From assembly GCA_020639315.1 (NCBI GenBank), contig JACKGM010000002.1, forward strand, positions 222,321-286,320: DNA of 64,000 nt. The letters run 5' to 3'. Both the position numbers and the translations under genes were made by a program. How positions within the stretch are numbered: position 1 is the stretch's first letter; each line of letters starts with the position of its first letter. This stretch comes from Candidatus Nomurabacteria bacterium (lineage in GTDB: Bacteria; Patescibacteriota; Saccharimonadia; JAGOAT01). Below, piece after piece: positions 2,190-63,847 of this stretch. The notes under the pieces are model-generated. The model was not told where the DNA came from and made no database searches. It worked only from the letters and a program-made list of their open reading frames with translations.

Positions 2190-4763
2190 TTACCTCCCAG
2201 AATATCTCTTGGGTTCAGGAATTTTGGCTGAATTTGCCCCGATCGATTGGCTAAAGGCATTTTGTCTGTTAATTGTTTTTTGAGCTTGGTTTTGCTTGGA
2301 GTTACCATGCTTCCTTTCGAGCATCCCTTGTAAGGAATTATTCTCCGACCTCACAGTGTTGGCTAGATTAGCCCAATCGAGAATTTTATTCTCTACTTCT
2401 TCTCTTCTACTCGAATACCTTTGTCTTGACAAACTTATTATTTTATTGCTTAAATCAAAACTTGGAGCTGGTACATCCAAAGTCTTCGCACTAAAAGGGA
2501 GGGTTGTCTGACCATCAATACTCATTGCTATATAAATATTTCTGATATCTAGATTGACTAGGTCCTCTTCACTAAAAACTGGTTTAAAGTACTTACTCAG
2601 ATACTCAGCATCATCGGCCCCGACCCTAAAAGTGATCATTGAGCCAACATTGCCAAATACTGCATCTCTGACTTCGTCTCGCATCTGAGAGACATACTGA
2701 TTGGCAACAGTCAGGTTTAGGGCATATTTTCTAGCTTCTGAGAGAATAACTGCAAACGACTCAGTAGCAAAATTTTGGAACTCGTCGACATAGAGATAAA
2801 ATGGTCGCCGATTGGCTGGTAAGGTATCCGCCCGACTCATTGCTGCTAATTGGATCTTAGTAATCATTAAAGCACCCAGAATACTAGCGTTATCTTCACC
2901 AATCAAACCCCTAGAAAGATCTACGATCAAGATCTTGCCTTGATCCATAATCTGACGAATATCAAAGCTGGACTTGGGCTGACCCAGCACATTTCTAATC
3001 AGTGGGTTGGCAGTAAAGGCTCCTACCTTATTTAAGATCGAAGAAGTAGCCTCAGAAGCAAATCTCTGATCCCAGCTCGCAAATTCATTGACCCAAAAGG
3101 CTTTGACTACTGGATCAGTCACATTATCAACCACTTTTTTTCGATACTTACTGTCAGTCAACATCCTGACTATTCCTAGCATCGTTGCGTCAGGATATTC
3201 AAGCAAAGCAAGCAGACAATATCGCAAAATATGCTCGAGTCTTGGACCCCAAGAATCAGCAAATATCTTATGTAATACCCCAATAATCTCTGAGGCTATA
3301 TGGGGTCTGAAGTTCGGATTTGTCACTTCCATAGGATTAAATGCAACTGGATTATCTCGATCGGATGGATTGAAATATACTACATCAGCAAGCCTTTGCT
3401 CAGGAATATAGCTCATCACATCTCTAGCCAGTTCCCCATGAGGGTCAATGATCGCAAAACCTTGATTGTGATAGATGTCAGAGATTGCCAGAAGGGTCAA
3501 AAGATAGGACTTACCAGACCCACTCTTCCCTATCACATAGAGGTGCCTTGCCCGATCAGACCTCTTAATCCCAAATTTTGCATTGTGTTGCCTAAACATT
3601 GTCTGACCGATCAGGCTAATATCAGCTTGATCAGCTTGGCTAACTATCGGCAAGGTTTGAGGCGGTTCAGCTTGCTTACTACCAGTCCAGGCAAGATTTG
3701 GTGTCTCGACCGAAGTATGTGGGAAATGAAAGAGACTAGCTAATTCTTCGGTATTTAGAATAAAACTATACCTAGTATCAAAGACTCGATTTTTAAAATC
3801 TTGATAATACTGCTCTCCTCTTTTGGTAGAACCAGCTCTAAACCCATTGAGCTGGGTGTTAAACTGTTTGAAACTTCCATATACTGCTTGAAGTTTAGCT
3901 TGAGCAAGGGATTGATCTCCGATATAAATTACCCTGATCATCACCTGAAAACCTAGCTTGGTTGCCTTCTCTTCTATCCCAGCGACCTGGCTAGTAGCCA
4001 GACTACTCAGCTTATCTGACTTATGTGACTCTTCAATCGAAACTGGACCAACCAATAAGGCATGAAACAAATCCCTAACCCAAGCCATTAGACCTGCTGG
4101 CAGATTTGCAAAACTACTGATCAAGGGTTTACCTGATCTGACCTTGGCAATCTCTTTTTGACTATCCTTGTGCCAATCATCAGATATTGGTCGTACAATC
4201 ATCTGGATTGCTAGATTTTGATCAGATTCTAAGCTAGATAAGACAGCCGTAATTCCCGATAATGGATCAACCTCAAAATTACTAAAAGTCTTAATCGGCA
4301 AATATTGACTATTTTTTAGCACTATCTCACTACCGATCGCCTTACCCTTCATCCCTTCTAAGTAGTCTGTCTGATGTTTAATTATCTGGACATTTGGATA
4401 CTGCGCATAGATTTGACCCTCGACATAGTTTTCCAATTTTTCAGGACAACGCAGATAAAAATAAATATTTTTAGACCCTACCAACTCGAAACTAAGTGAC
4501 TCCTGAAGTGCCATCCCTGATCTTAGCTCAGTCTTGCTTCTGAGTATCCCATGTAGACTGGCAAACATCTGCTCAGCAGCCAACTCTGATTTGTCGTTCT
4601 CCCTTGGTATAATAATTTGCAATAAAACAGACTTCTGATCCTCGACCAGTCTAATCTGACGGTTCTGGACTATGATCCGCCAAACCAAAAACCCAGCCAA
4701 AGGCAACCAGCCATAATAACGGATTAAAACGGTTAAAAAAAAGTTGAATATACCCTCAATCAT
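2190..4763 (-). CDS. VirD4/TraG/HerA-FtsK-superfamily membrane-anchored ATPase (type IV coupling-protein-like)
   Basis: N-terminal TM helices, Walker A GKSGSGKSYLL, Walker B FYLYVDEFQNF. Size and layout are typical of coupling ATPases. Confidence 0.65.
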   Translation of the reverse strand: MIEGIFNFFLTVLIRYYGWLPLAGFLVWRIIVQNRQIRLVEDQKSVLLQIIIPRENDKSELAAEQMFASLHGILRSKTELRSGMALQESLSFELVGSKNIYFYLRCPEKLENYVEGQIYAQYPNVQIIKHQTDYLEGMKGKAIGSEIVLKNSQYLPIKTFSNFEVDPLSGITAVLSSLESDQNLAIQMIVRPISDDWHKDSQKEIAKVRSGKPLISSFANLPAGLMAWVRDLFHALLVGPVSIEESHKSDKLSSLATSQVAGIEEKATKLGFQVMIRVIYIGDQSLAQAKLQAVYGSFKQFNTQLNGFRAGSTKRGEQYYQDFKNRVFDTRYSFILNTEELASLFHFPHTSVETPNLAWTGSKQAEPPQTLPIVSQADQADISLIGQTMFRQHNAKFGIKRSDRARHLYVIGKSGSGKSYLLTLLAISDIYHNQGFAIIDPHGELARDVMSYIPEQRLADVVYFNPSDRDNPVAFNPMEVTNPNFRPHIASEIIGVLHKIFADSWGPRLEHILRYCLLALLEYPDATMLGIVRMLTDSKYRKKVVDNVTDPVVKAFWVNEFASWDQRFASEATSSILNKVGAFTANPLIRNVLGQPKSSFDIRQIMDQGKILIVDLSRGLIGEDNASILGALMITKIQLAAMSRADTLPANRRPFYLYVDEFQNFATESFAVILSEARKYALNLTVANQYVSQMRDEVRDAVFGNVGSMITFRVGADDAEYLSKYFKPVFSEEDLVNLDIRNIYIAMSIDGQTTLPFSAKTLDVPAPSFDLSNKIISLSRQRYSSRREEVENKILDWANLANTVRSENNSLQGMLERKHGNSKQNQAQKTINRQNAFSQSIGANSAKIPEPKRYSGR

Positions 4764-12759: not shown

Positions 12760-12822
12760 TATATATCAAACTATCAAGATATCCAAAATAAATTTGACTA
12801 ACATATTACACCACATTTCCTG

Positions 12823-12884
12823 TCGCGAACTGTTCGCGATTTTTACTAACTTACCAGATTACGAATGTCGCGAACAGTTCGCGA
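12823..12884. repeat. Palindrome doublet, family 2 (arm TCGCGAAC(T/A)GTTCGCGA x2, 28-nt spacer)
   Basis: Arms at 12823-12839 and 12868-12884, centres 45 bp apart. Confidence 0.9.
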
Positions 12885-12936
12885 TATTTTGATTTTGCGA
12901 AGCTTGTCAATACCTGTAAAACAAACCTACTCAAAA

Positions 12937-29122: not shown

Positions 29123-29457
29123 GGGAGGTAGCTGGCTATAAGCCGAATTCTGTCCAACACATTTAGTGTCTGGATAATCATTTATCTTAGCGTCATACCC
29201 TTAGGCCAATTACTTGACCTAGACGGCGAGCAGCCTGGGTCCATTAGACTTGCAGCAGACAGGGTTTACCCCTAGATTATGTCGCCATAATCTACTGTGA
29301 GCTCTTACCTCACTCTTTTCACCCTTACCCGCAATGGGCGGTATTGTCTCTGTGGCACTTTCCCTAGGATTGCTCCTGGTCACAGTTAGTGACTGTCTTT
29401 GCTCTGAGCTGTTCGGACTTTCCTCCGCCAAAGCGGCGATTACCCACCAACTACCAT
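29123..29457 (-). ncRNA. rnpB: RNase P RNA, bacterial type A
   Basis: The minus strand contains GGAGGAAAGUCCGAAC (CR-I), GUGCCACAGAGACAAUACCGCC, GGUAAGGGUGAAAAGAGUGAGGUAAGAGCUCAC, GGUAAACCC and ACAGAAUUCGGCUUAU (CR-V). P1 pairs GGUAGUUGG with CCAGCUACC. Confidence 0.93.
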
Positions 29458-30117: not shown

Positions 30118-30353
30118 TTTTGGCCTCCTTTATTGTTATCTAGAGTTATAATGCATTGGTTCAAGCTGATTTGATCTCTGTATAAAAATTACCAAACCAA
30201 TACATCATAAGCCCAGTTTAATAGTGGCTTGATGATACTACGAGGGCTGTAAGCTAACCCACAATGACTAGCTAATCATCCTGATTGTCCCAGTAAAATT
30301 GATATTTTGCAAGCATGAGCAATTTAAAACTTAACATTACATCATATTTTTTG

Positions 30354-30415
30354 TCGCGAACTGTTCGCGACTTTTGGTGCCTTCCCAGATTAGAAATGTC
30401 GCGAACTGTTCGCGT
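30354..30415. repeat. Palindrome doublet, family 2
   Basis: Arms at 30354-30370 and 30399-30415 (last base T), centres 45 bp apart. Confidence 0.9.
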
Positions 30416-30461
30416 AATTTAGATTTTTACCATCATGTCAAGCCCCTAGACCCAACACCCT

Positions 30462-36022: not shown

Positions 36023-36081
36023 CGCTCTATATATAGCGTAGCCTGTATTTACTATAGCACTAGCCTGACTAAGCATGTCAA
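36023..36081 (-). promoter_or_regulatory. Putative nrdR promoter with two NrdR-box-like AT-core palindromes
   Basis: Minus strand has TTGACA (36076-36081), 19 nt, then TATAGT (36051-36056). Boxes are CGCTCTATATATAGCG (36023-36038) and GTATTTACTATAGCAC (36045-36060). Spacing and box matches are imperfect. Confidence 0.3.
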
Positions 36082-36120
36082 GCCAGTTTACGAAAAAAGT
36101 TTTTAAAATCCTGTGGATAA

Positions 36121-36571
36121 TACATCCTCCGAATCCTCCTTGAGAAGGTTACGGGATCCAGTATCTATAGCATTGTCATCTTGCAAATACCAGAGGGTTT
36201 ACGGGGGATCCAGTATTCCAGCATTTGCATTGTCATCCTCCGAATTATCCTTAAGAGAATTACGGGGGATCCAGTATCTCGCATTGTCCTGACTCCTAAT
36301 ACAAATACTGGATCTCCGGTATTTCCCCAAGGGGAAATCCGAAGATGACAAGAGGGGATGGATCTCCCATAAACCCCTGCCGGATTTTGGAAGATGACGC
36401 GAAGAGGGGGCGGAAATTTGGGTTGATGACAGAGGGAGCATTGTCATCCTCCGAAACCCACCCCTCTCCTGTCATCCTCCGAAGTTCGGAGAACTTACGG
36501 GGGATCCAGTATTCCCGCATTTGCATTGTCATTCTCCGAATTCTCATGGAGAATTACGGGGGATCCAGTAT
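36121..36571. repeat. Hairpin-unit cluster 1 (class A units +, class B/C units -, plus half units)
   Basis: Units at 36121-36164, 36175-36216, 36231-36277, 36470-36512 and 36527-36571 (+), and at 36305-36350 and 36358-36398 (-). Half modules at 36399-36437 and 36442-36469. Confidence 0.9.
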
Positions 36572-36596
36572 CTCGCATTACCATGGGTCTAATTCA

Positions 36597-36721
36597 ATGA
36601 TTTTTATTGCGTGTTGGCAAAGCACGGCAAAGGATAACAGCCATATACTGCGCAGTGATTTATAAATTTGAGATAAAAAGGGTAGTTTTTACGCCATGAA
36701 ATTATATGGCAACAGGGTTAT
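36597..36721. repeat. ~125-nt conserved element, copy 1 (one terminal repeat only), directly downstream of ftsZ stop
   Basis: Shares ATGATTTTTATT..., AAA(A/G)CACG(A/G)CAAAG(C/G)ATAACAG, CTGCG(A/C)AGTG and the terminal TTATATGGCAACAGGGTTAT with 38715-38840. Confidence 0.6.
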
Positions 36722-36737
36722 CGAAGGAACAAGTCTA

Positions 36738-38225
36738 CTAAAGTTTCTCTTTAACAAAATCTGGCATATCAGAATCCGTACCATCAGAGGAGCTTAACTT
36801 AGAATTAAGACCTGATTTATTACTAGAGTTTCTCAAATAGGCAGGCTTATCAAACTCATCATCTTCAAAACTAGGGGTTTGAATACTAACAGTCTCTACC
36901 CTCTCTTCAACAATGTCAAATCCTGAACCCAAACCGGAACCATAGTCCATCTGGTCGGATTCCTGATTCTGCCTAGGCTCTTCTGGGTCTGATTTATGGC
37001 GCCTCAGTAGTCTACCCCCTAGACCAGTTTTACTTGACTGAGAACTAAGCTCTAACTCAGCACCAGACCCCAAGTCAGCATCAACCATTGCACTGATATC
37101 CTCACTTTGGGCACGGCGAATTTCAGCAACTTGATCATTTCTGCTTGACACCACATTACTACTATAGCTAGCGCTGGATTGAGCCTTGATGGTTGTATTG
37201 TAGCTAGAAGAACTACTACTATTACCAAAACCAAAGCTATTACTACCACCAACACTAGATCTGAGTGGCCTAGGCAAATCAAATCCAGTCGCTACTAAGG
37301 TCACTCGGATTTCACCAGTCATATTTTCATCCAAAACAGTACCCCAAATAATATTGGCCTCTGGGTCTACTTCATCATGGATTAGCTTAGCGGCCTCTTC
37401 GATCTCCTGCATACCAAGATCTCTACCCCCAGTGAAGTTAATCAGTACTCCCCTAGCACCATTGATCGAAACATCCAGTAGTGGAGAATCCATCGCTTGT
37501 CTGACTGCTAGGATTGCCCGATTGTCCCCAGATGCCTGACCGATACCCATTAGGGCTGAACCTGCATGCTCCATAATAGACTTGACATCAGCAAAATCTA
37601 GATTGACCAAGCCATTGATCGTAATCAGGTCTGATATACCCTGAATACCTTGATGCAAAATCTCATCTACAGTTGAAAATGCATCAATCAAAGAAGTCTT
37701 ATGGTCTATAATCTGAGAAATCTTATCATTGGGAATGATGATCAAGGTATCTACCTTGTCCCGAATCTCCTCGATCGCTCCCTCGGCAATCCTCCTTCTT
37801 CGATCCCCTTCAAAGCTAAAAGGCTTGGTCACTATACCGACTACCAGTGCTCCTACCTCTTTAGCAACCTTGGCAATAGTCGGGGCAGCACCAGAACCAG
37901 TACCACCACCAAATCCAGCAGTCAGAAACACCATCTCTGCGCCTTGTAATGCTTCCCTGATTTGTTCTTCATTTTCCTCGGCTGCCTGGCGACCGACATC
38001 AGGATTAGCTCCAGCCCCTAGCCCCTTGGTAGTATTCTTACCAATATGAAATTTATGAGCAGATTTTGAATAGTGCAAAGCTTGGGCATCGGTGTTAATT
38101 ACTATAAACTCTACCCCTTTAAGCTTAGATTGAATCATCCGATTGACTGCATTGCCCCCACCTCCGCCAATGCCTACTACTTTGATTCGAGCAAAAGTCT
38201 CGATTGCTGGCAAAATTTCTGCCAT
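36738..38225 (-). CDS. ftsZ: Cell division GTPase FtsZ (long disordered C-terminal linker)
   Basis: [13 protein letters not shown] and [12 protein letters not shown] tubulin signature. Confidence 0.97.
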
Positions 38226-38444: not shown

Positions 38445-38670
38445 TGTCATCCTCAAAAAATCTATGAGAGTTCAATTCAAATACTGAATATCCCATAATT
38501 TCTTACAGAAATTTGGAAGATGACGGTGCAATGCCATTAACTTAAGACTTTGTAAGTTTTATTCAATGTACAAGTCAAGCATTAGTAGAACTCCAAAAGG
38601 TACTGATCTCTCCTTAAGTTAACGGTATTGAGATGACACGGGGGGCGGAAATTTGGGCTATTGACAGAGG
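38445..38670. repeat. Hairpin-unit cluster 2, distal part
   Basis: 5' half unit at 38445; class C unit (-) at 38481-38525; degenerate unit (-) at 38600-38638; GGCGGAAATTTGGG module at 38639-38670. Confidence 0.8.
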
Positions 38671-38676
38671 AGGAAT

Positions 38677-38839
38677 TAACCCTGTTGCCATATAAACTTG
38701 CGAGGTCAAAGCTGATGATTTTTATTCCAGAATACCAAAACACGACAAAGCATAACAGGAGTTACGCTGCGAAGTGTTTTGCTAGTCTGGGGCAAAAATG
38801 GCAGTTTTGAAGCCGTGAGGTTATATGGCAACAGGGTTA
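38677..38839. mobile_element. ~163-bp element with perfect 19-bp terminal inverted repeats (MITE-like), copy 2 of the 125-nt element
   Basis: TAACCCTGTTGCCATATAA (38677-38695) and TTATATGGCAACAGGGTTA (38821-38839). The interior is homologous to 36597-36701. Confidence 0.65.
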
Positions 38840-38840
38840 T

Positions 38841-38993
38841 TGTCATCCTCCGAAACCCGAAGGGTTTACGGGGGATCCAGTATTCGGCATTGCGCATTGT
38901 CATCCTCCGAAGTTCGGAGAACTTACGGGGGATCCAGTATTTCAGTATTTGTCAAATCAAAAATCAAGGGAATTTACAAAAAAAAACCAGTAT
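38841..38993. repeat. Hairpin-unit cluster 2, ftsA-proximal part
   Basis: Class A units (+) at 38841-38883 and 38898-38940, with a degenerate TGTCA...CCAGTAT remnant to ~38993. It ends 2 nt before the ftsA stop codon. Confidence 0.85.
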
Positions 38994-54013: not shown

Positions 54014-54116
54014 TAAAATAAAACAAATTTTATACTCACCCTAACACCCTAATTATATCACTTACCTAATATTATACAACTCAACCCCCAAACCCTCTCC
54101 AAACCGATCGCGTCAA

Positions 54117-54178
54117 TCGCGAACTGTTCGCGATTTTTAGCACCTTTCCAGATTAGAGATGTCGCGAACTGTTCGCGA
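54117..54178. repeat. Palindrome doublet, family 2 (upstream flank of RAYT-like gene)
   Basis: Arms at 54117-54133 and 54162-54178, centres 45 bp apart. Confidence 0.9.
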
Positions 54179-54295
54179 AATTTATTAAATATTTATACAT
54201 AACACGATACTTATGCTTGCAAATAACCCCAAAACAGTTAAGATATGACTAACTTCGTTATCTTTATAGTCCACTACTAAAATGGTTTAAATCTC

Positions 54296-54850
54296 ATGTC
54301 CGCCAGAAACACCTACAGATACAAGGTCGATAATACATTTTTGCATATATACTCTCGTGCCAATAATAAAGTTCCAGTATTTATCAATCAGAAATACTTT
54401 GATAAATTCTTAGATATCTTACTATTTTTACTTACGACTGATGACAATTTAGCCGACTCCCTTAGGTTATTTAGTAGACCTAGAAAACCATGTCAAAACT
54501 TTTCCAAAAATATCAACCTCGTGTCTTTCTGCATAATGAACAATCACTATCACCTTATAATCTATATTAAAGATAGTGATAAGTTACCAAAATTCATGCA
54601 TTTGTTTCACAGAAAACTTACACAAATTATCAACTCTGATCAAAATAAAGTTGGTCATCTGATGCAAAGTAGGTACAAATCTAGACCAATATTATCAGAA
54701 GTAGACTTGCTAAATGTATCTGCCTATATTCAACTAAACCCAAATGAAATTCATCCACAAGATAGCAACTACTACCTCAGATACCCCTTCTCTTCGCTCA
54801 ATTCAACTCATATGATTTCTAAAGTAGTCAGTACTAATATGATTTTTTAG
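54296..54850 (+). CDS. IS200/RAYT-like Y1 HUH transposase (REP-associated tyrosine transposase-like)
   Basis: FCIMNNHYHLIIY (HUH), GHLMQSRYKS (catalytic Tyr context), AYIQLNPNE...YYLRYPFSS tail. AT-rich gene flanked by family-2 doublets on both sides. Confidence 0.7.
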   Translation: MSARNTYRYKVDNTFLHIYSRANNKVPVFINQKYFDKFLDILLFLLTTDDNLADSLRLFSRPRKPCQNFSKNINLVSFCIMNNHYHLIIYIKDSDKLPKFMHLFHRKLTQIINSDQNKVGHLMQSRYKSRPILSEVDLLNVSAYIQLNPNEIHPQDSNYYLRYPFSSLNSTHMISKVVSTNMIF

Positions 54851-54992
54851 GTACACCAGTATTTCAAAGCAACAATATCTTGAATATCTTAATGCCAAAT
54901 CCAAGGATTTTGCAGAATATCAAATTATCAAAAAATCCCTATAGTAAATGATGGAAATTATCAAAATACAATATATTATGCAATATTTTTTG

Positions 54993-55054
54993 TCGCGAAC
55001 TGTTCGCGATTTTTAGCACCTTACCAGATTAGAGATGTCGCGAACTGTTCGCGA
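54993..55054. repeat. Palindrome doublet, family 2 (downstream flank of RAYT-like gene; overlaps 3' end of nadD)
   Basis: Arms at 54993-55009 and 55038-55054, centres 45 bp apart. The nadD stop codon (55029-55031) lies in the spacer. Confidence 0.9.
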
Positions 55055-55634
55055 AAAGTTGATTTTTGGTGATGTAGTCAAGGACTGGCTGGCTGAGTCC
55101 TTGGGGAGCTTGGCGATTGGCTAATTGTTGGCGGATTTGGGTGGCTGAAGTCAAATCATCTATCATTGCGACCTCTTGATATCTCAGACTAGGAATGGAT
55201 CGAAGTTTTGCCTGGATTTGTTTTGACTGATGATGATAACCTGCTCGCTTAATCCAGACGAAACCTACTCGATGTTCGAGTAGATAATCTAGCCCCTGCC
55301 ACTGATCGAGATTGGTAATCCCGTCACTACCCAAAACAATATCGACCTTAAGACCCTTGCCATAGATCTCAAACAAATCCTCCACTACCTGATAATCTAT
55401 TACTCTGGCTTCTGACTGAAAGTCATACTTATCGAGCACCGCTTGTCTATTGCCCAATCCCAATCTCAGCATTGCTTTACGATCGTCAAAACCAACTAAA
55501 CCTGCCAAGTTCCTCCGATTCTCGAGCAAGATTATTACCTCATCATAGTCCCTTGATGATAGATAGTCTACTACTGCGAGATGCCCCTGATGAACGGGGT
55601 TAAAACTTCCTGAGTACAAGGCTAGCTGGTTCAA
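55029..55634 (-). CDS. nadD: Nicotinate-nucleotide adenylyltransferase
   Basis: YSGSFNPVHQGHL motif. The last 8 codons (FANSSRHL*) are encoded by the repeat. Confidence 0.85.
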   Translation of the reverse strand: MNQLALYSGSFNPVHQGHLAVVDYLSSRDYDEVIILLENRRNLAGLVGFDDRKAMLRLGLGNRQAVLDKYDFQSEARVIDYQVVEDLFEIYGKGLKVDIVLGSDGITNLDQWQGLDYLLEHRVGFVWIKRAGYHHQSKQIQAKLRSIPSLRYQEVAMIDDLTSATQIRQQLANRQAPQGLSQPVLDYITKNQLFANSSRHL

Positions 55635-62527: not shown

Positions 62528-62963
62528 ATACTGGATCCCCCGTAAGTTCTCCGAACTTCGGAAGATGACAGAAGAGGGACAGGTTTCGGAGGATGACAGG
62601 AGTTGGTCACCAAACCAAATTTCCGCTCTCTCCGCGTGTCATCTTCCAAAATCCCTTACTCCTCGCGTGTCATCTTCGGATTTCCCTTTAGGGAAATACC
62701 GGAGATCCAGTATCTGGATTGGATTCCAAAAATGCGAAATGCTGGATCCCCCGTAAGTTCTCCGAACTTCGGAGGATGACAATCCCCTTCCCGTGTCATC
62801 TTCGGATTTCCCCTTGGGGGAATACCGGAGATCCAGTATCTGGATTGGATTCCAGAAATGCGAAATGCTAGATCCCCCGTAAGTTCTCCGAACTTCGGAG
62901 GATGACAATGCCCTTTTGTGTCATCTTCCAAATTTCCGTAGGAAATTATGGGAGATCCAGTAT
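62528..62963. repeat. Hairpin-unit cluster 3 (class A units -, class B/C units +; 125-126 bp higher-order period)
   Basis: Units at 62528-62570(-), 62668-62713(+), 62739-62781(-), 62794-62839(+), 62865-62907(-) and 62919-62963(+). Half modules at 62571-62598, 62608-62636 and 62637-62667. Confidence 0.9.
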
Positions 62964-63270: not shown

Positions 63271-63847
63271 ATACCCAAAACCAAACCGGACAATTTGGGA
63301 CTACTAATAAAGAGTTGGAAAGTTAGTTCATTTTATGAACCTTACTTATCTATTTAAGCCAAAATATTAAAATACCGCTATGTCGCAAAATATTATTTAC
63401 TATTACCTTTACCCCCAAGTATTCTCTTCTCTTTTGCCATCCTCCGAGTAGCTAGCTCTGTTTATTGTCATCCTCCGAAACCTGTCCCTTCTTTCTACCG
63501 CCCTCCGAAGTTCGGAGAACTTACGGGGGATCCAGTATTCCCGCATTTGCATTGTCATCCTCCGAAACCCGAAGGGTTTACGTGGGATCCAGTATTTTGC
63601 ATTCCTGAGGCTCAACTCAAATACTGGATCTCCCATAATTTCCTACGGAAATTTGGAAGATGACTAGAGGAGAGTATTGTCATCCTCCGAAGTTTGGAGA
63701 ACTTACGGGGGATCCAGTATTTTGTATCTGGAGTCATCAACAAAAGACAAGTTGGTTTTAGGTTAAGATTAGTATCCATAGTATACCCAAAACAAAACCA
63801 GCATTAGTAGTCCCAAATTGTCTGGTTTTGGTTTGGACATGCTATAG
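63271..63847. mobile_element. Long member of the MITE family (~577 bp) enclosing hairpin-unit cluster 4
   Basis: Left arm CCCAAAACCAAACCGGACAATTTGGGACTACTA (63274-63306) and right arm TAGTAGTCCCAAATTGTCTGGTTTTGGTTTGG (63805-63836). The left ~75 nt align with the short MITE left half, and the element ends ...ACATGCTAT. Confidence 0.6.
63434..63720. repeat. Hairpin-unit cluster 4
   Basis: Class A units (+) at ~63499-63538, 63553-63595 and 63678-63720. Class C unit (-) at 63621-63665. Half modules at 63434 and 63466. Confidence 0.85.

What the first reader, a model, noticed from the sequence alone, without database searches (positions are those of the whole stretch)
36121..36571. Hairpin-unit repeat family with compensatory stem changes, a conserved T.G wobble and a bulged A (about 20 units in four clusters)
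Each unit reads 5'-TGTCA | P1a (7 nt) | P2a (6-8 nt) | loop (3-4 nt) | P2b | A | P1b (7 nt) | TCCAGTAT-3'. P1 comes in three classes that all stay complementary: A TCCTCCG/CGGGGGA, B TCTTCGG/CCGGAGA, C TCTTCCA/TGGGAGA. In every class the 4th pair is T.G, and an unpaired A precedes P1b. P2 changes completely between copies yet always pairs: AAGTTC-GGA-GAACTT, AAACCC-GAA-GGGTTT, AATTCTC-ATG-GAGAATT, ATTTCCC-TTTA-GGGAAAT, AATTTCC-GTA-GGAAATT. One copy has AAGTTT/GAACTT, which is another wobble on the same strand. Structure is therefore conserved while sequence varies. That is the signature of selection on a folded RNA or single-stranded DNA, not on a protein. I do not recognise this unit as any described repeat or ncRNA family, but I could not search any database.
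Basis: seen in the sequence. Interest (0 to 1): 0.85.

Follow-up and report, generated by a model that had tools for sequence, protein, structure and literature searches.

The report
Known hairpin DNA repeats, long-loop form
The repeats are real and their stems do co-vary, but they belong to an already described family of hairpin DNA repeats (CGTC/TGTC-tagged REPs, also called Neisseria NTS or Ssn-related motifs) that a small nuclease cuts as single-stranded DNA; here they occur in a Saccharibacteria genome in a long form with a second helix in place of the loop.

Summary
The window holds 16 full units, 3 degenerate ones and about 6 half-units, in four intergenic clusters. Nine of 14 stem pairs show compensatory changes. 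The T.G pair and the bulged A are invariant.

The unit is not a new class. Its 5' tag TGTC, its 8-bp basal palindrome starting A-T then T-A, and its 3' tail CCAG match the CGTC/TGTC-tagged REP superfamily (Di Nocera 2013). That superfamily includes Neisseria dRS3/NTS and the Ssn-related motifs (SRM) of Chenal 2025. SRMs are bound and cut only as single-stranded DNA, on one strand, by small GIY-YIG nucleases called Ssn.

The published SRM pattern finds 0 units. With only its loop length relaxed, it finds 13. So these are SRMs whose 4-5 nt loop is replaced by a variable second helix.

The same scaffold occurs in Alphaproteobacteria, Legionellales, Phycisphaerae and several Patescibacteria lineages. 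In two of those loci it lies next to GIY-YIG genes.

Two relatives (80-84% protein identity) lack the clusters at the same intergenic sites, so the clusters are lineage-specific gains.

The window has no Ssn gene. Its RAYT-like gene is flanked by a different palindrome family.

Verdict: a new member, in long-loop form, of a known kind. Interest is moderate to low.

The parts
36121..36164 (+). Degenerate unit. The tag has decayed to TACA and P1b has lost two G.
   Evidence: Alignment row w36121deg.
36174..36216 (+). Degenerate unit. P1a reads TCTTGCA and no longer pairs fully.
   Evidence: Alignment row w36174deg.
36231..36277 (+). Full unit, P1 class A (TCCTCCG/CGGGGGA), with a long P2.
36305..36350 (-). 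Full unit, P1 class B (TCTTCGG/CCGGAGA), P2 ATTTCCC/GGGAAAT. It forms a tail-to-tail dimer with the unit at 36231.
   Evidence: inverted repeat I2.
36355..36399 (-). Full unit, P1 class C (TCTTCCA/TGGGAGA), with the canonical CGTCA tag and a decayed tail.
36400..36441 (-). Half-unit (TGTCATCAACCCAAATTTCCG) plus a CCCCCTCTTCG spacer, lying 5' of the unit at 36355.
   Evidence: Read from the sequence; repeat family D7.
36442..36469 (+). Half-unit (TGTCATCCTCCGAAACC) plus a CACCCCTCTCC spacer, lying 5' of the unit at 36470.
36470..36512 (+). Full unit, class A, P2 AAGTTC-GGA-GAACTT.
   Evidence: The DNA fold gives -9.4 kcal/mol, z -3.2.
36527..36571 (+). Full unit, class A variant TTCTCCG, P2 AATTCTC-ATG-GAGAATT.
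38445..38470 (+). Half-unit (TGTCATCCTCAAAAAATC...).
   Evidence: repeat family D2.
38481..38525 (-). Degenerate class C unit with a CGTCA tag.
38621..38677 (-). Degenerate composite of a half-unit and spacer (TGTCAATAGCCCAAATTTCCG CCCCCCG TGTCATCTC).
   Evidence: Repeat family D7; sequence.
38841..38883 (+). Full unit, class A, P2 AAACCC-GAA-GGGTTT.
38898..38940 (+). Full unit, class A, P2 AAGTTC-GGA-GAACTT.
62528..62570 (-). Full unit, P1 TCTTCCG/CGGGGGA (two T.G pairs).
62571..62598 (-). Half-unit (TGTCATCCTCCGAAACC) plus a TGTCCCTCTTC spacer, lying 5' of the unit at 62528.
   Evidence: nested hit 62528-62598.
62637..62667 (+). Half-unit plus spacer, lying 5' of the unit at 62668.
62668..62713 (+). 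Full unit, class B. It is the first unit of a 126-nt tandem period made of one forward class B unit and one reverse class A unit.
62739..62781 (-). Full unit, class A.
62794..62839 (+). Full unit, class B.
62865..62907 (-). Full unit, class A (tail TCTAGCAT).
62919..62963 (+). Full unit, class C, P2 AATTTCC-GTA-GGAAATT.
63435..63465 (+). Half-unit with a decayed tag (TGCCATCCTCCGAG...).
63466..63538 (+). Composite: a half-unit (TGTCATCCTCCGAAACC), a spacer, and a unit whose 5' tag has decayed (TACCGCCCTCCG-AAGTTC...).
63553..63595 (+). Full unit, class A, with one broken P1 pair (CGTGGGA).
63621..63665 (-). Full unit, class C (tag AGTCA).
63678..63720 (+). Full unit, class A, P2 AAGTTT/GAACTT (extra T.G wobble).

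Best explanation
The units are long-loop members of the CGTC/TGTC-tagged REP superfamily. That superfamily includes Neisseria dRS3/NTS and the 'Ssn-related motifs' (SRM).

Proposed mechanism:
1. When the DNA is single-stranded (replication, or uptake and recombination of transforming DNA), the top strand of each unit folds.
2. The fold has an 8-bp basal helix (A-T, T-A, then six variable pairs including the T.G), a bulged A, and a 6-7 bp distal helix.
3. The recognition module is the basal helix together with the unpaired 5' tag TGTC and the 3' tail CCAG. A small single-domain GIY-YIG nuclease of the Ssn family binds the palindrome and the C just 3' of it, and cuts the single strand just upstream of the palindrome.
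4. The distal helix P2 sits where the canonical 4-5 nt loop is. The enzyme does not read that position, so P2 is free to change as long as the hairpin still forms. That produces the compensatory pattern.
5. The T.G pair (C.A on the other strand) and the asymmetric flanks make only one strand a substrate.

The units multiply as whole P1+P2 subfamilies and pile up in clusters in intergenic DNA.

Shown here: the sequence and structure match to the family, the covariation, the lineage-specific gain, and the absence of an Ssn gene in the window.

Inferred: that an Ssn nuclease encoded elsewhere in this Saccharibacteria genome acts on the units, and that the consequence is control of ssDNA recombination and/or selfish spread.
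For: Match to the family:
- Tag, palindrome and tail match the published descriptions. NTS is CGTCATTCCCGCGMAVGCGGGAATCYRG. 'CGTC is changed to TGTC in many repeats'; stems start with A-T and T-A; the tail is CCA.
- The published SRM pattern gives 0 hits in the window.

Continuity with canonical forms:
- L002 (Phycisphaerae) carries a canonical NTS (CGTCATTCCCGCGCAGGCGGGAATCCAG) and TGTCATCCCCGCGCAGGCGGGGATCCAGTAT. Together with a third SRM they flank a 94-aa GIY-YIG gene.
- L050 (Saccharibacteria) has a long-form unit 44 nt from a GIY-YIG gene.
- Short-loop and long-loop forms with the same flanks occur side by side in many phyla.

Structure:
- Covariation in the window and across taxa.
- Top-strand DNA hairpins fold at -8.3 to -10.4 kcal/mol, z -2.8 to -4.3 (a fifth unit, 36527, is weaker: -6.8 kcal/mol, z -1.9). 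They are about 1.5 kcal/mol more stable than the bottom strand.

Published enzymology:
- SsnA acts on ssDNA only and on one strand only.
- The C after the palindrome is crucial for binding, and the 3 nt upstream of the palindrome for cutting.
- The loop is dispensable and can be extended by complementary sequence.
- In the window the corresponding positions G2, T3, C4 and C41 are at least 90% conserved.

Dynamics:
- P2 types never occur outside the scaffold, and each is tied to one P1 class.
- Relatives lack the clusters at three orthologous intergenic regions.
Against: - No GIY-YIG/Ssn homolog is encoded in the 64-kb window. A motif regex, tblastn and an HMM built from 122 small GIY-YIG proteins run on the six-frame translation (best E = 4) all found nothing. 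I could not scan the rest of the genome.
- The strict published SRM pattern is not met, because of loop length.
- Three of the small GIY-YIG genes fetched from Patescibacteria and other contigs have no flanking units.
- The conserved bulged A and the invariant T.G are not explained by any published Ssn data.
- No experiment exists for any Patescibacteria Ssn.
- The cross-taxon P1 set was selected on pairing, so its percentage paired is circular. Only the diversity of pair types is informative.
Confidence: 0.72

Rival explanations
1. REP/REPIN elements mobilised in trans by a RAYT (HUH Y1 transposase), for example the RAYT-like protein at 54296-54850. The enzyme would recognise the ssDNA hairpin and cut in the flanks.
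For: - The architecture (hairpin plus asymmetric flanks), the inverted dimers and the clusters resemble REP/BIME/REPIN.
- A Y1_Tnp/RAYT-like ORF is present. Pfam PF01797 gives E 7e-8. The NCBIfam REP_Tyr_transpos model gives 42.7 bits, below its cut-off of 80.
Against: - The tag is TGTC/CGTC, not GTAG.
- The RAYT-like gene is flanked on both sides by a different palindrome family: doublets of TGTCGCGAACTGTTCGCGA 45 nt apart. That family also occurs at 12824 and 30355. No TGTCA unit lies within 7 kb of the gene.
- Di Nocera et al. found that RAYT genes are never flanked by CGTC units.
- Chenal et al. found that the associated gene is ssn.
Confidence: 0.1
2. The units function as structured RNA, for example as mRNA-stabilising or terminator-like 3' hairpins, or as a small ncRNA. 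The U.G pair and the bulged A would be RNA features.
For: - A T.G wobble is also stable as U.G in RNA.
- Di Nocera et al. argue that many REPs are transcribed and may act as RNA.
- The units lie between co-directional genes.
Against: - No Rfam family matches, either at the gathering threshold or at E <= 10.
- Units occur in both orientations within one intergenic region. In clusters 1 and 2, flanked by minus-strand genes, 7 of 10 units are on the + strand and so antisense to the local transcripts.
- No U-tract follows the hairpin.
- SsnA does not bind the RNA version of NTS.
- Multi-copy clustering, half-units and presence/absence between relatives are typical of repetitive DNA elements.
Confidence: 0.1
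3. P2 hairpins are independent very small mobile elements, in the manner of the cyanobacterial small dispersed repeats (SDRs), that inserted into the loop of a resident scaffold.
For: - P2 comes in discrete sequence types inside a constant scaffold.
- Nested or interrupted copies exist.
- The comparison with SDRs (Elhai et al. 2008) is made from memory. That paper was not read here.
Against: - Every occurrence of every P2 type in the window lies inside a unit.
- Each P2 type is linked to a single P1 class. So whole units, not P2 modules, are what is copied.
Confidence: 0.03

Closest known systems
Neisseria NTS/dRS3 and Ssn-related motifs (SRM), substrates of the GIY-YIG ssDNA nuclease SsnA (Chenal et al., Nat Commun 2025, PMC11893778)
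   Same: - A 5' (C/T)GTCA tag, a palindrome starting AT..., and a 3' TCYRG tail with a conserved C just after the palindrome.
- Directional and hairpin-forming.
- Hundreds of copies per genome, intergenic, clustered around genes.
- Found across phyla, and flanking small GIY-YIG genes (seen here in L002 and L050).
   Different: - The loop of 0-5 nt is replaced by a 15-19 nt second helix with a bulged A, so the published search pattern misses every unit.
- The basal helix carries an invariant T.G.
- The host is a Saccharibacteria (Patescibacteria) genome.
- No ssn gene lies in the window.
- No enzymology exists for this form, although SsnA tolerates loop extensions in vitro.
CGTC-tagged REP families CGTC-1 to CGTC-4 (Di Nocera, De Gregorio, Rocco, BMC Genomics 2013, PMC3733652)
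   Same: - The tag CGTC is often TGTC.
- Stems of 8-9 bp begin with A-T and T-A, and the tail is CCA.
- Units form opposite-orientation dimers and sometimes large clusters.
- They are extragenic.
- RAYT genes in the same genomes are not flanked by them.
   Different: - The families are defined with 4-5 nt loops. Longer loops are mentioned only as exceptions (Bradyrhizobium CGTC-1, K. olearia, M. prima).
- Patescibacteria were not among the 5 phyla reported.
GTAG-tagged REP / BIME / REPIN elements with RAYT transposases (E. coli, Pseudomonas)
   Same: Short extragenic imperfect palindromes with an asymmetric tag, arranged as inverted dimers and clusters, and recognised as ssDNA hairpins by a dedicated enzyme.
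   Different: The tag differs (GTAG) and so does the enzyme class (HUH Y1 transposase). Here the RAYT-like gene has its own, different palindromes.
Subterminal hairpins of IS200/IS605 elements (IS608, ISDra2)
   Same: Strand-specific ssDNA hairpins with bulged or mismatched bases, read together with adjacent single-stranded bases.
   Different: Those hairpins bound a transposase-carrying element and are processed by a Y1 transposase. No such element surrounds the units.

Membership tests
CGTC/TGTC-tagged REP superfamily (Di Nocera 2013) | Unpaired 5' tag CGTC (often TGTC or CCTC). | tested here: met
   The tag is TGTC in 14 of 16 full units, CGTC in one (36355) and AGTC in one (63621). G2, T3 and C4 are at least 90% conserved.
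CGTC/TGTC-tagged REP superfamily (Di Nocera 2013) | Stem of 8-9 bp whose first two pairs are complementary A/T residues. | tested here: met
   The DNA fold pairs A5-T40 and T6-A39. Both pairs are invariant in 34 scaffold types from many taxa.
CGTC/TGTC-tagged REP superfamily (Di Nocera 2013) | Loop of 4-5 nt. | tested here: not met
   The interior is 15-19 nt and forms a second helix plus a bulged A. The paper notes exceptions with other loop lengths.
CGTC/TGTC-tagged REP superfamily (Di Nocera 2013) | Short unpaired 3' tail fitting CCA. | tested here: met
   The tail after the T40 pair is CCAG, with C41, C42 and A43 at least 90% conserved.
CGTC/TGTC-tagged REP superfamily (Di Nocera 2013) | Extragenic, often in opposite-orientation dimers or clusters; RAYT genes are not flanked by them. 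| tested here: met
   There are four intergenic clusters. Inverted dimers are seen. The RAYT-like gene is flanked by another family.
NTS / Ssn-related motif (Chenal 2025) | Match to the SRM search pattern HGTCWYN(0-2)YYVSBRHN(0-5)WNVSBRGN(0-2)RNCYNB. | tested here: not met
   The strict pattern gives 0 matches in the window. The failure is due to loop length only.
NTS / Ssn-related motif (Chenal 2025) | Conserved bases that SsnA needs: the 3 nt upstream of the palindrome and the C right after it. | tested here: met
   GTC upstream of the palindrome and C41 after it are at least 90% conserved in the window and invariant across taxa.
NTS / Ssn-related motif (Chenal 2025) | A small single-domain GIY-YIG (cd10448) ssn gene in the genome, often flanked by the motifs. 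| tested here: inconclusive
   None is present in the 64-kb window, and the rest of the genome could not be searched. In related loci, L002 and L050 have GIY-YIG genes next to units and L004 has one about 4 kb from the nearest unit. CDD family cd10448 itself could not be tested; only Pfam PF01541 was.
NTS / Ssn-related motif (Chenal 2025) | Bound and cut as ssDNA on one strand only; not as dsDNA or RNA. | not testable with these tools
   This needs purified protein and oligonucleotides. Only the strand asymmetry of the fold could be computed.
RAYT-associated GTAG REP / REPIN | GTAG tag at the foot of the hairpin. | tested here: not met
   The tag is TGTC/CGTC.
RAYT-associated GTAG REP / REPIN | The RAYT gene is flanked by its cognate REPs. 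| tested here: not met
   The RAYT-like ORF at 54296-54850 is flanked by TCGCGAAC-T-GTTCGCGA doublets, not by TGTCA units.
Any Rfam RNA family | Covariance-model match. | tested here: not met
   The only match at gathering score in the whole window is RNase P. In 36050-36750 at E <= 10 there are only chance-level hits.

The most novel reading that the evidence does not exclude
The long-form units may be a distinct, cross-phylum subclass of Ssn-related motifs with its own recognition logic or its own Ssn clade. They combine the basal SRM helix with an invariant T.G, a conserved bulged A and a free distal helix.

The same bulged A before the 3' arm is seen in Alphaproteobacteria, Gracilibacteria, Berkelbacteria and other Patescibacteria copies.

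In an episymbiotic Saccharibacterium, these clusters on both sides of ftsZ could gate recombination of imported single-stranded DNA. Alternatively, if the genome truly lacks ssn, a different and unknown enzyme would act on them.
Probability: 0.2. Interest if true: 0.55.

Novelty: new member of a known kind. Interest (0 to 1): 0.33.

Why it matters
- It assigns a striking but unannotated repeat in a Saccharibacteria genome to a family with a known biochemical partner, the site-specific ssDNA nucleases called Ssn.
- It shows that the published SRM search pattern (loop of 5 nt or less) misses a widespread long-loop form. Surveys based on that pattern probably under-count these repeats, notably in Patescibacteria.
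- The natural series of P2 variants, the invariant T.G and the bulged A give ready-made substrates for testing what Ssn enzymes read. That is relevant to their proposed use as programmable ssDNA cutters.
- It is not a new class of element or RNA.

Tried and rejected
- Rfam, whole window at gathering score and cluster 1 at E <= 10: no family.
- Literature search by raw sequence strings: nothing relevant.
- Cyanobacterial origin and SDR elements, my first guess from memory: rejected. The organism is a Saccharibacterium, and P2 modules never occur alone.
- A recurrent neighbouring protein family across loci that carry units: none found by all-against-all BLASTP of flanking ORFs. The unit between def and fmt in L001 and L015 is an intergenic coincidence or hot spot.
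- Viral contigs: essentially absent, 1 hit.
- The metagenome scan gave only 21 loci. Two short contigs (L066, L074) carry window-type units.
- Ssn gene in the window: a motif regex, tblastn and a custom HMM were all negative.
- Contexts of three further small GIY-YIG genes (P0016, P0034, P0109): no flanking units.
- Supplementary tables of the Ssn paper are not held, so I could not check whether Patescibacteria were covered.
- PDB sequence search with a locus GIY-YIG protein: only the UPF0213 protein 1zg2, and no Ssn structure.
- I also considered hammerhead or other small ribozymes, group II intron domain VI (bulged A), integron attC sites and oriT nick sites by inspection. None of their conserved cores is present. 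These comparisons were made from memory and are not tool tests.
Full report
**1.

The conserved ends are strongly over-represented in the window. GATCCAGTAT (up to 1 mismatch) occurs 30 times against 4.9 expected, and TGTCATCYTC occurs 31 times against 9.9 expected. No shuffle reaches either count.

A regex finds 14 units. A pairing-aware scan finds 16 full units, plus degenerate copies and half-units. They lie in four clusters: 36121-36571, 38445-38940, 62528-62963 and 63435-63720. All four are intergenic:
- between nrdR and ftsZ;
- between ftsZ and ftsA;
- upstream of a 148-aa ORF next to pheS, which holds two clusters.

Tandem Repeats Finder also sees a 126-nt period made of one forward and one reverse unit.

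| Measure | Observed | Control |
|---|---|---|
| Cells forming a standard pair | 93.2% | 78.3% in shuffles (0/500 reach it) |
| Same, 3' partner slid 1-3 columns | - | 62% or less |
| Pairs with changes on both sides | 9 of 14 | 5.6 in shuffles |

The T.G pair is present in 18 of 18 distinct rows, and the A before P1b is invariant.

With DNA parameters, four of the five top strands folded give the predicted hairpin at -8.3 to -10.4 kcal/mol (z -2.8 to -4.3); the fifth, 36527, is weaker at -6.8 kcal/mol (z -1.9). The A of TGTCA pairs with the T of TCCAGTAT, so the basal helix is 8 bp. The bottom strand is about 1.5 kcal/mol weaker, because the T.G becomes C.A there.

**2. The family reaches far beyond this genome**

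One scan of GTDB representative genomes for TGTCATCYTC-N(18-34)-GATCCAGTAT returned 51 loci. Many are chance matches. About two dozen have the same architecture, and they come from these groups:
- Alphaproteobacteria (L003, L010, L013, L033, L048);
- Legionellales (L018);
- Neisseriaceae (L021);
- Phycisphaerae (L002);
- Gracilibacteria (L025), Berkelbacteria (L045) and Roizmanbacteria (L030);
- Doudnabacteria (six loci), Saccharibacteria (three loci) and other Patescibacteria (L047, L049).

In most of these loci the forward unit is followed 10-30 nt later by an inverted partner. Read in its own sense, that partner is TGTCATTCCCGC-loop-GCGGGAATCCAG.

A general scan of all loci shows short-loop forms (loops such as GAAA, GAAG, GCAG, GTAG) and long-loop forms with the same flanks side by side. 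It gives 113 hits, against 10 in shuffled loci.

**3. Identification**

That short form led to two papers.

*Di Nocera et al. 2013 (PMC3733652)* define CGTC-tagged REPs as follows:
[quoted passage not shown] - loops are 4-5 nt, with exceptions;
- the tail is CCA;
- units form opposite-orientation dimers, and large clusters in Neisseria and Wolbachia;
- Neisseria dRS3 belongs to family CGTC-1.

The authors state that RAYT genes in species carrying CGTC REPs are never flanked by CGTC units.

*Chenal et al. 2025 (PMC11893778)* extend dRS3 to the 28-nt NTS, CGTCATTCCCGCGMAVGCGGGAATCYRG. They generalise it to 'Ssn-related motifs' and report the following:
- The 94-aa GIY-YIG protein SsnA binds and cuts NTS only as ssDNA.
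- It does not act on dsDNA, on RNA or on the reverse strand.
- The C just after the palindrome is critical for binding.
- The three bases upstream of the palindrome are critical for cutting.
- The loop is dispensable and can be extended by complementary sequence.
- ssn genes are flanked by SRMs in 42-71% of cases.

**4. Direct tests of membership**

- The published SRM pattern gives 0 matches in the window.
- In L002 a canonical NTS (3961-3988), the intermediate TGTCATCCCCGCGCAGGCGGGGATCCAGTAT (4124-4154) and a third SRM (3559-3588) flank a 94-aa GIY-YIG gene (PF01541, E 2e-15).
- In the Saccharibacteria locus L050, a long-form unit lies 44 nt from a GIY-YIG gene.
- Across 34 distinct scaffold types, the first two pairs (A-T, T-A) and the flanks GTCA and TC.AG are invariant, while pairs 3-8 co-vary.
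This set was selected on pairing, so only the diversity of pair types counts as evidence.

**5. What replicates, and whether it moves**

Every P2 type occurs only inside a unit, and each is tied to one P1 class. So whole units are the copied entity, in subfamilies.

The organism is a Candidatus Saccharibacteria bacterium. Short-read assemblies of the same organism break at the clusters.

Two relatives lack the units at the orthologous sites:

| Relative | Intergenic region | Relative | Window |
|---|---|---|---|
| PheS 84% identical (L089/L090) | upstream of the 148-aa ORF | 636 bp | about 1580 bp |
| FtsZ 80% identical (L095) | ftsZ-nrdR | 122 bp | 732 bp |
| FtsZ 80% identical (L095) | ftsA-ftsZ | 342 bp | 770 bp |

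- In L089/L090, collinear anchors lie on either side of each cluster, and there is no unit in 13.8 kb.
- In L095 there are no units. Window 36083-36733 stands in place of 41 bp of the relative.

The clusters are therefore lineage-specific gains in conserved, syntenic intergenic DNA.

**6. The partner enzyme**

The window encodes no GIY-YIG/Ssn homolog. I could not search the rest of the genome.

The RAYT-like ORF at 54296-54850 matches Pfam Y1_Tnp at E 7e-8. Its match to the NCBIfam REP_Tyr_transpos model is below that model's cut-off. It is flanked on both sides by doublets of a different palindrome, TGTCGCGAACTGTTCGCGA. That palindrome also occurs at 12824/12869 and 30355/30400. Those doublets, not the TGTCA units, are its likely cognate repeats.

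**7. Mechanism and rivals**

The best explanation is an ssDNA hairpin substrate of an Ssn-type nuclease. The basal helix with its tag and tail is the recognition module, and P2 is an unread, stabilising replacement of the loop. This accounts for four things:
- the compensatory variation;
- the conserved flanks;
- the strand asymmetry;
- both orientations occurring within one cluster.

How copies arise is unknown, both for this family and for the window.

Rivals:
- An RNA role is disfavoured by the mixed orientation, the mostly antisense placement in clusters 1 and 2, the absence of a U-tract, the absence of Rfam hits, and SsnA not binding RNA.
- RAYT mobilisation is disfavoured by the tag and by the RAYT gene's own flanks.
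- Independent P2 mini-elements are rejected.

**8. Unexplained**

- The bulged A recurs in long forms from several phyla.
- The T.G is invariant in this genome.
- A 'half-unit + short spacer + full unit' composite recurs. In the window the spacer resembles CCCCTCTTC, at 36442, 36400-36441(-), 62571(-) and 63466, and also in L066. Similar 5'-half arrays occur in L002, L021, L067, L069 and L073.

**9. Verdict**

It is a member of a described family whose biochemistry was worked out in 2025. The new elements are the long-loop form, its occurrence in Patescibacteria, and the fact that the published search pattern misses it.

Noticed in passing
window 54296-54850 (+), with flanks 54084-54209 and 54960-55085; also 12790-12915 and 30321-30446: A RAYT-like Y1 transposase ORF is flanked on both sides by a second repeat family: two copies of the palindrome TGTCGCGAAC-T-GTTCGCGA 45 nt apart, joined by a conserved spacer (TTTTTAG.ACCTT.CCAGATTAGA.A). 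Two more doublets lie elsewhere in the window. This looks like a classic RAYT gene with its own REP doublets, unrelated to the TGTCA units.
   Followed up: partly
window 38677-38839; partial copy 36586-36721: A MITE-like element of about 163 bp with 38-nt terminal inverted repeats (TAACCCTGTTGCCATATAA...) sits next to cluster 2. A partial copy sits next to cluster 1. There is a weak, sub-threshold Rfam 'skipping-rope' hit at 36663-36737 (20 bits against a gathering score of 36.7). The element is absent from the relative L095.
   Followed up: partly
window 36442-36512, 36355-36441(-), 62528-62598(-), 62637-62713, 63466-63538; L066 1304-1375; L021, L067, L069, L073, L002: A composite recurs in which one or more 5' half-units (tag + P1a + start of P2) and a short spacer precede a full unit. 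It is seen in this genome and in unrelated phyla, so it may be a footprint of how copies are made. No explanation was found.
   Followed up: partly
window 36738-38225 (ftsZ) with clusters at 36121-36571 and 38445-38940: ftsZ is bracketed by unit clusters on both sides. This is the 'NTS-gene-NTS' arrangement that lowered transformation of the enclosed gene in Neisseria. It may be a coincidence.
   Followed up: no
L004, L007, L012, L015, L035, L044 (Doudnabacteria); L009, L011, L050 (Saccharibacteria); L049; L064/L072: A variant, TGTCATCCTCGGGCGAGTC-N(5-6)-GACCCGGGGATCCAGTAT, is conserved almost base for base across several Patescibacteria lineages. Its interior does not form a clean second helix. 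Several copies lie at contig ends.
   Followed up: no
window 29123-29455 (-): Bacterial RNase P RNA class A (Rfam RF00010, 206.9 bits).
   Followed up: no
whole window: GC skew is negative throughout, and almost all long ORFs lie on the minus strand, so the plus strand is probably the lagging strand. Unit orientation (10 plus, 6 minus) shows no clear bias towards either replication strand.
   Followed up: partly
L054, L055, L056/L093, L092, L094: Short-read assemblies of the same organism (GCA_020428505.1 and Logan contigs) end at or just outside the unit clusters. The repeats therefore break assemblies and are probably numerous genome-wide.
   Followed up: partly
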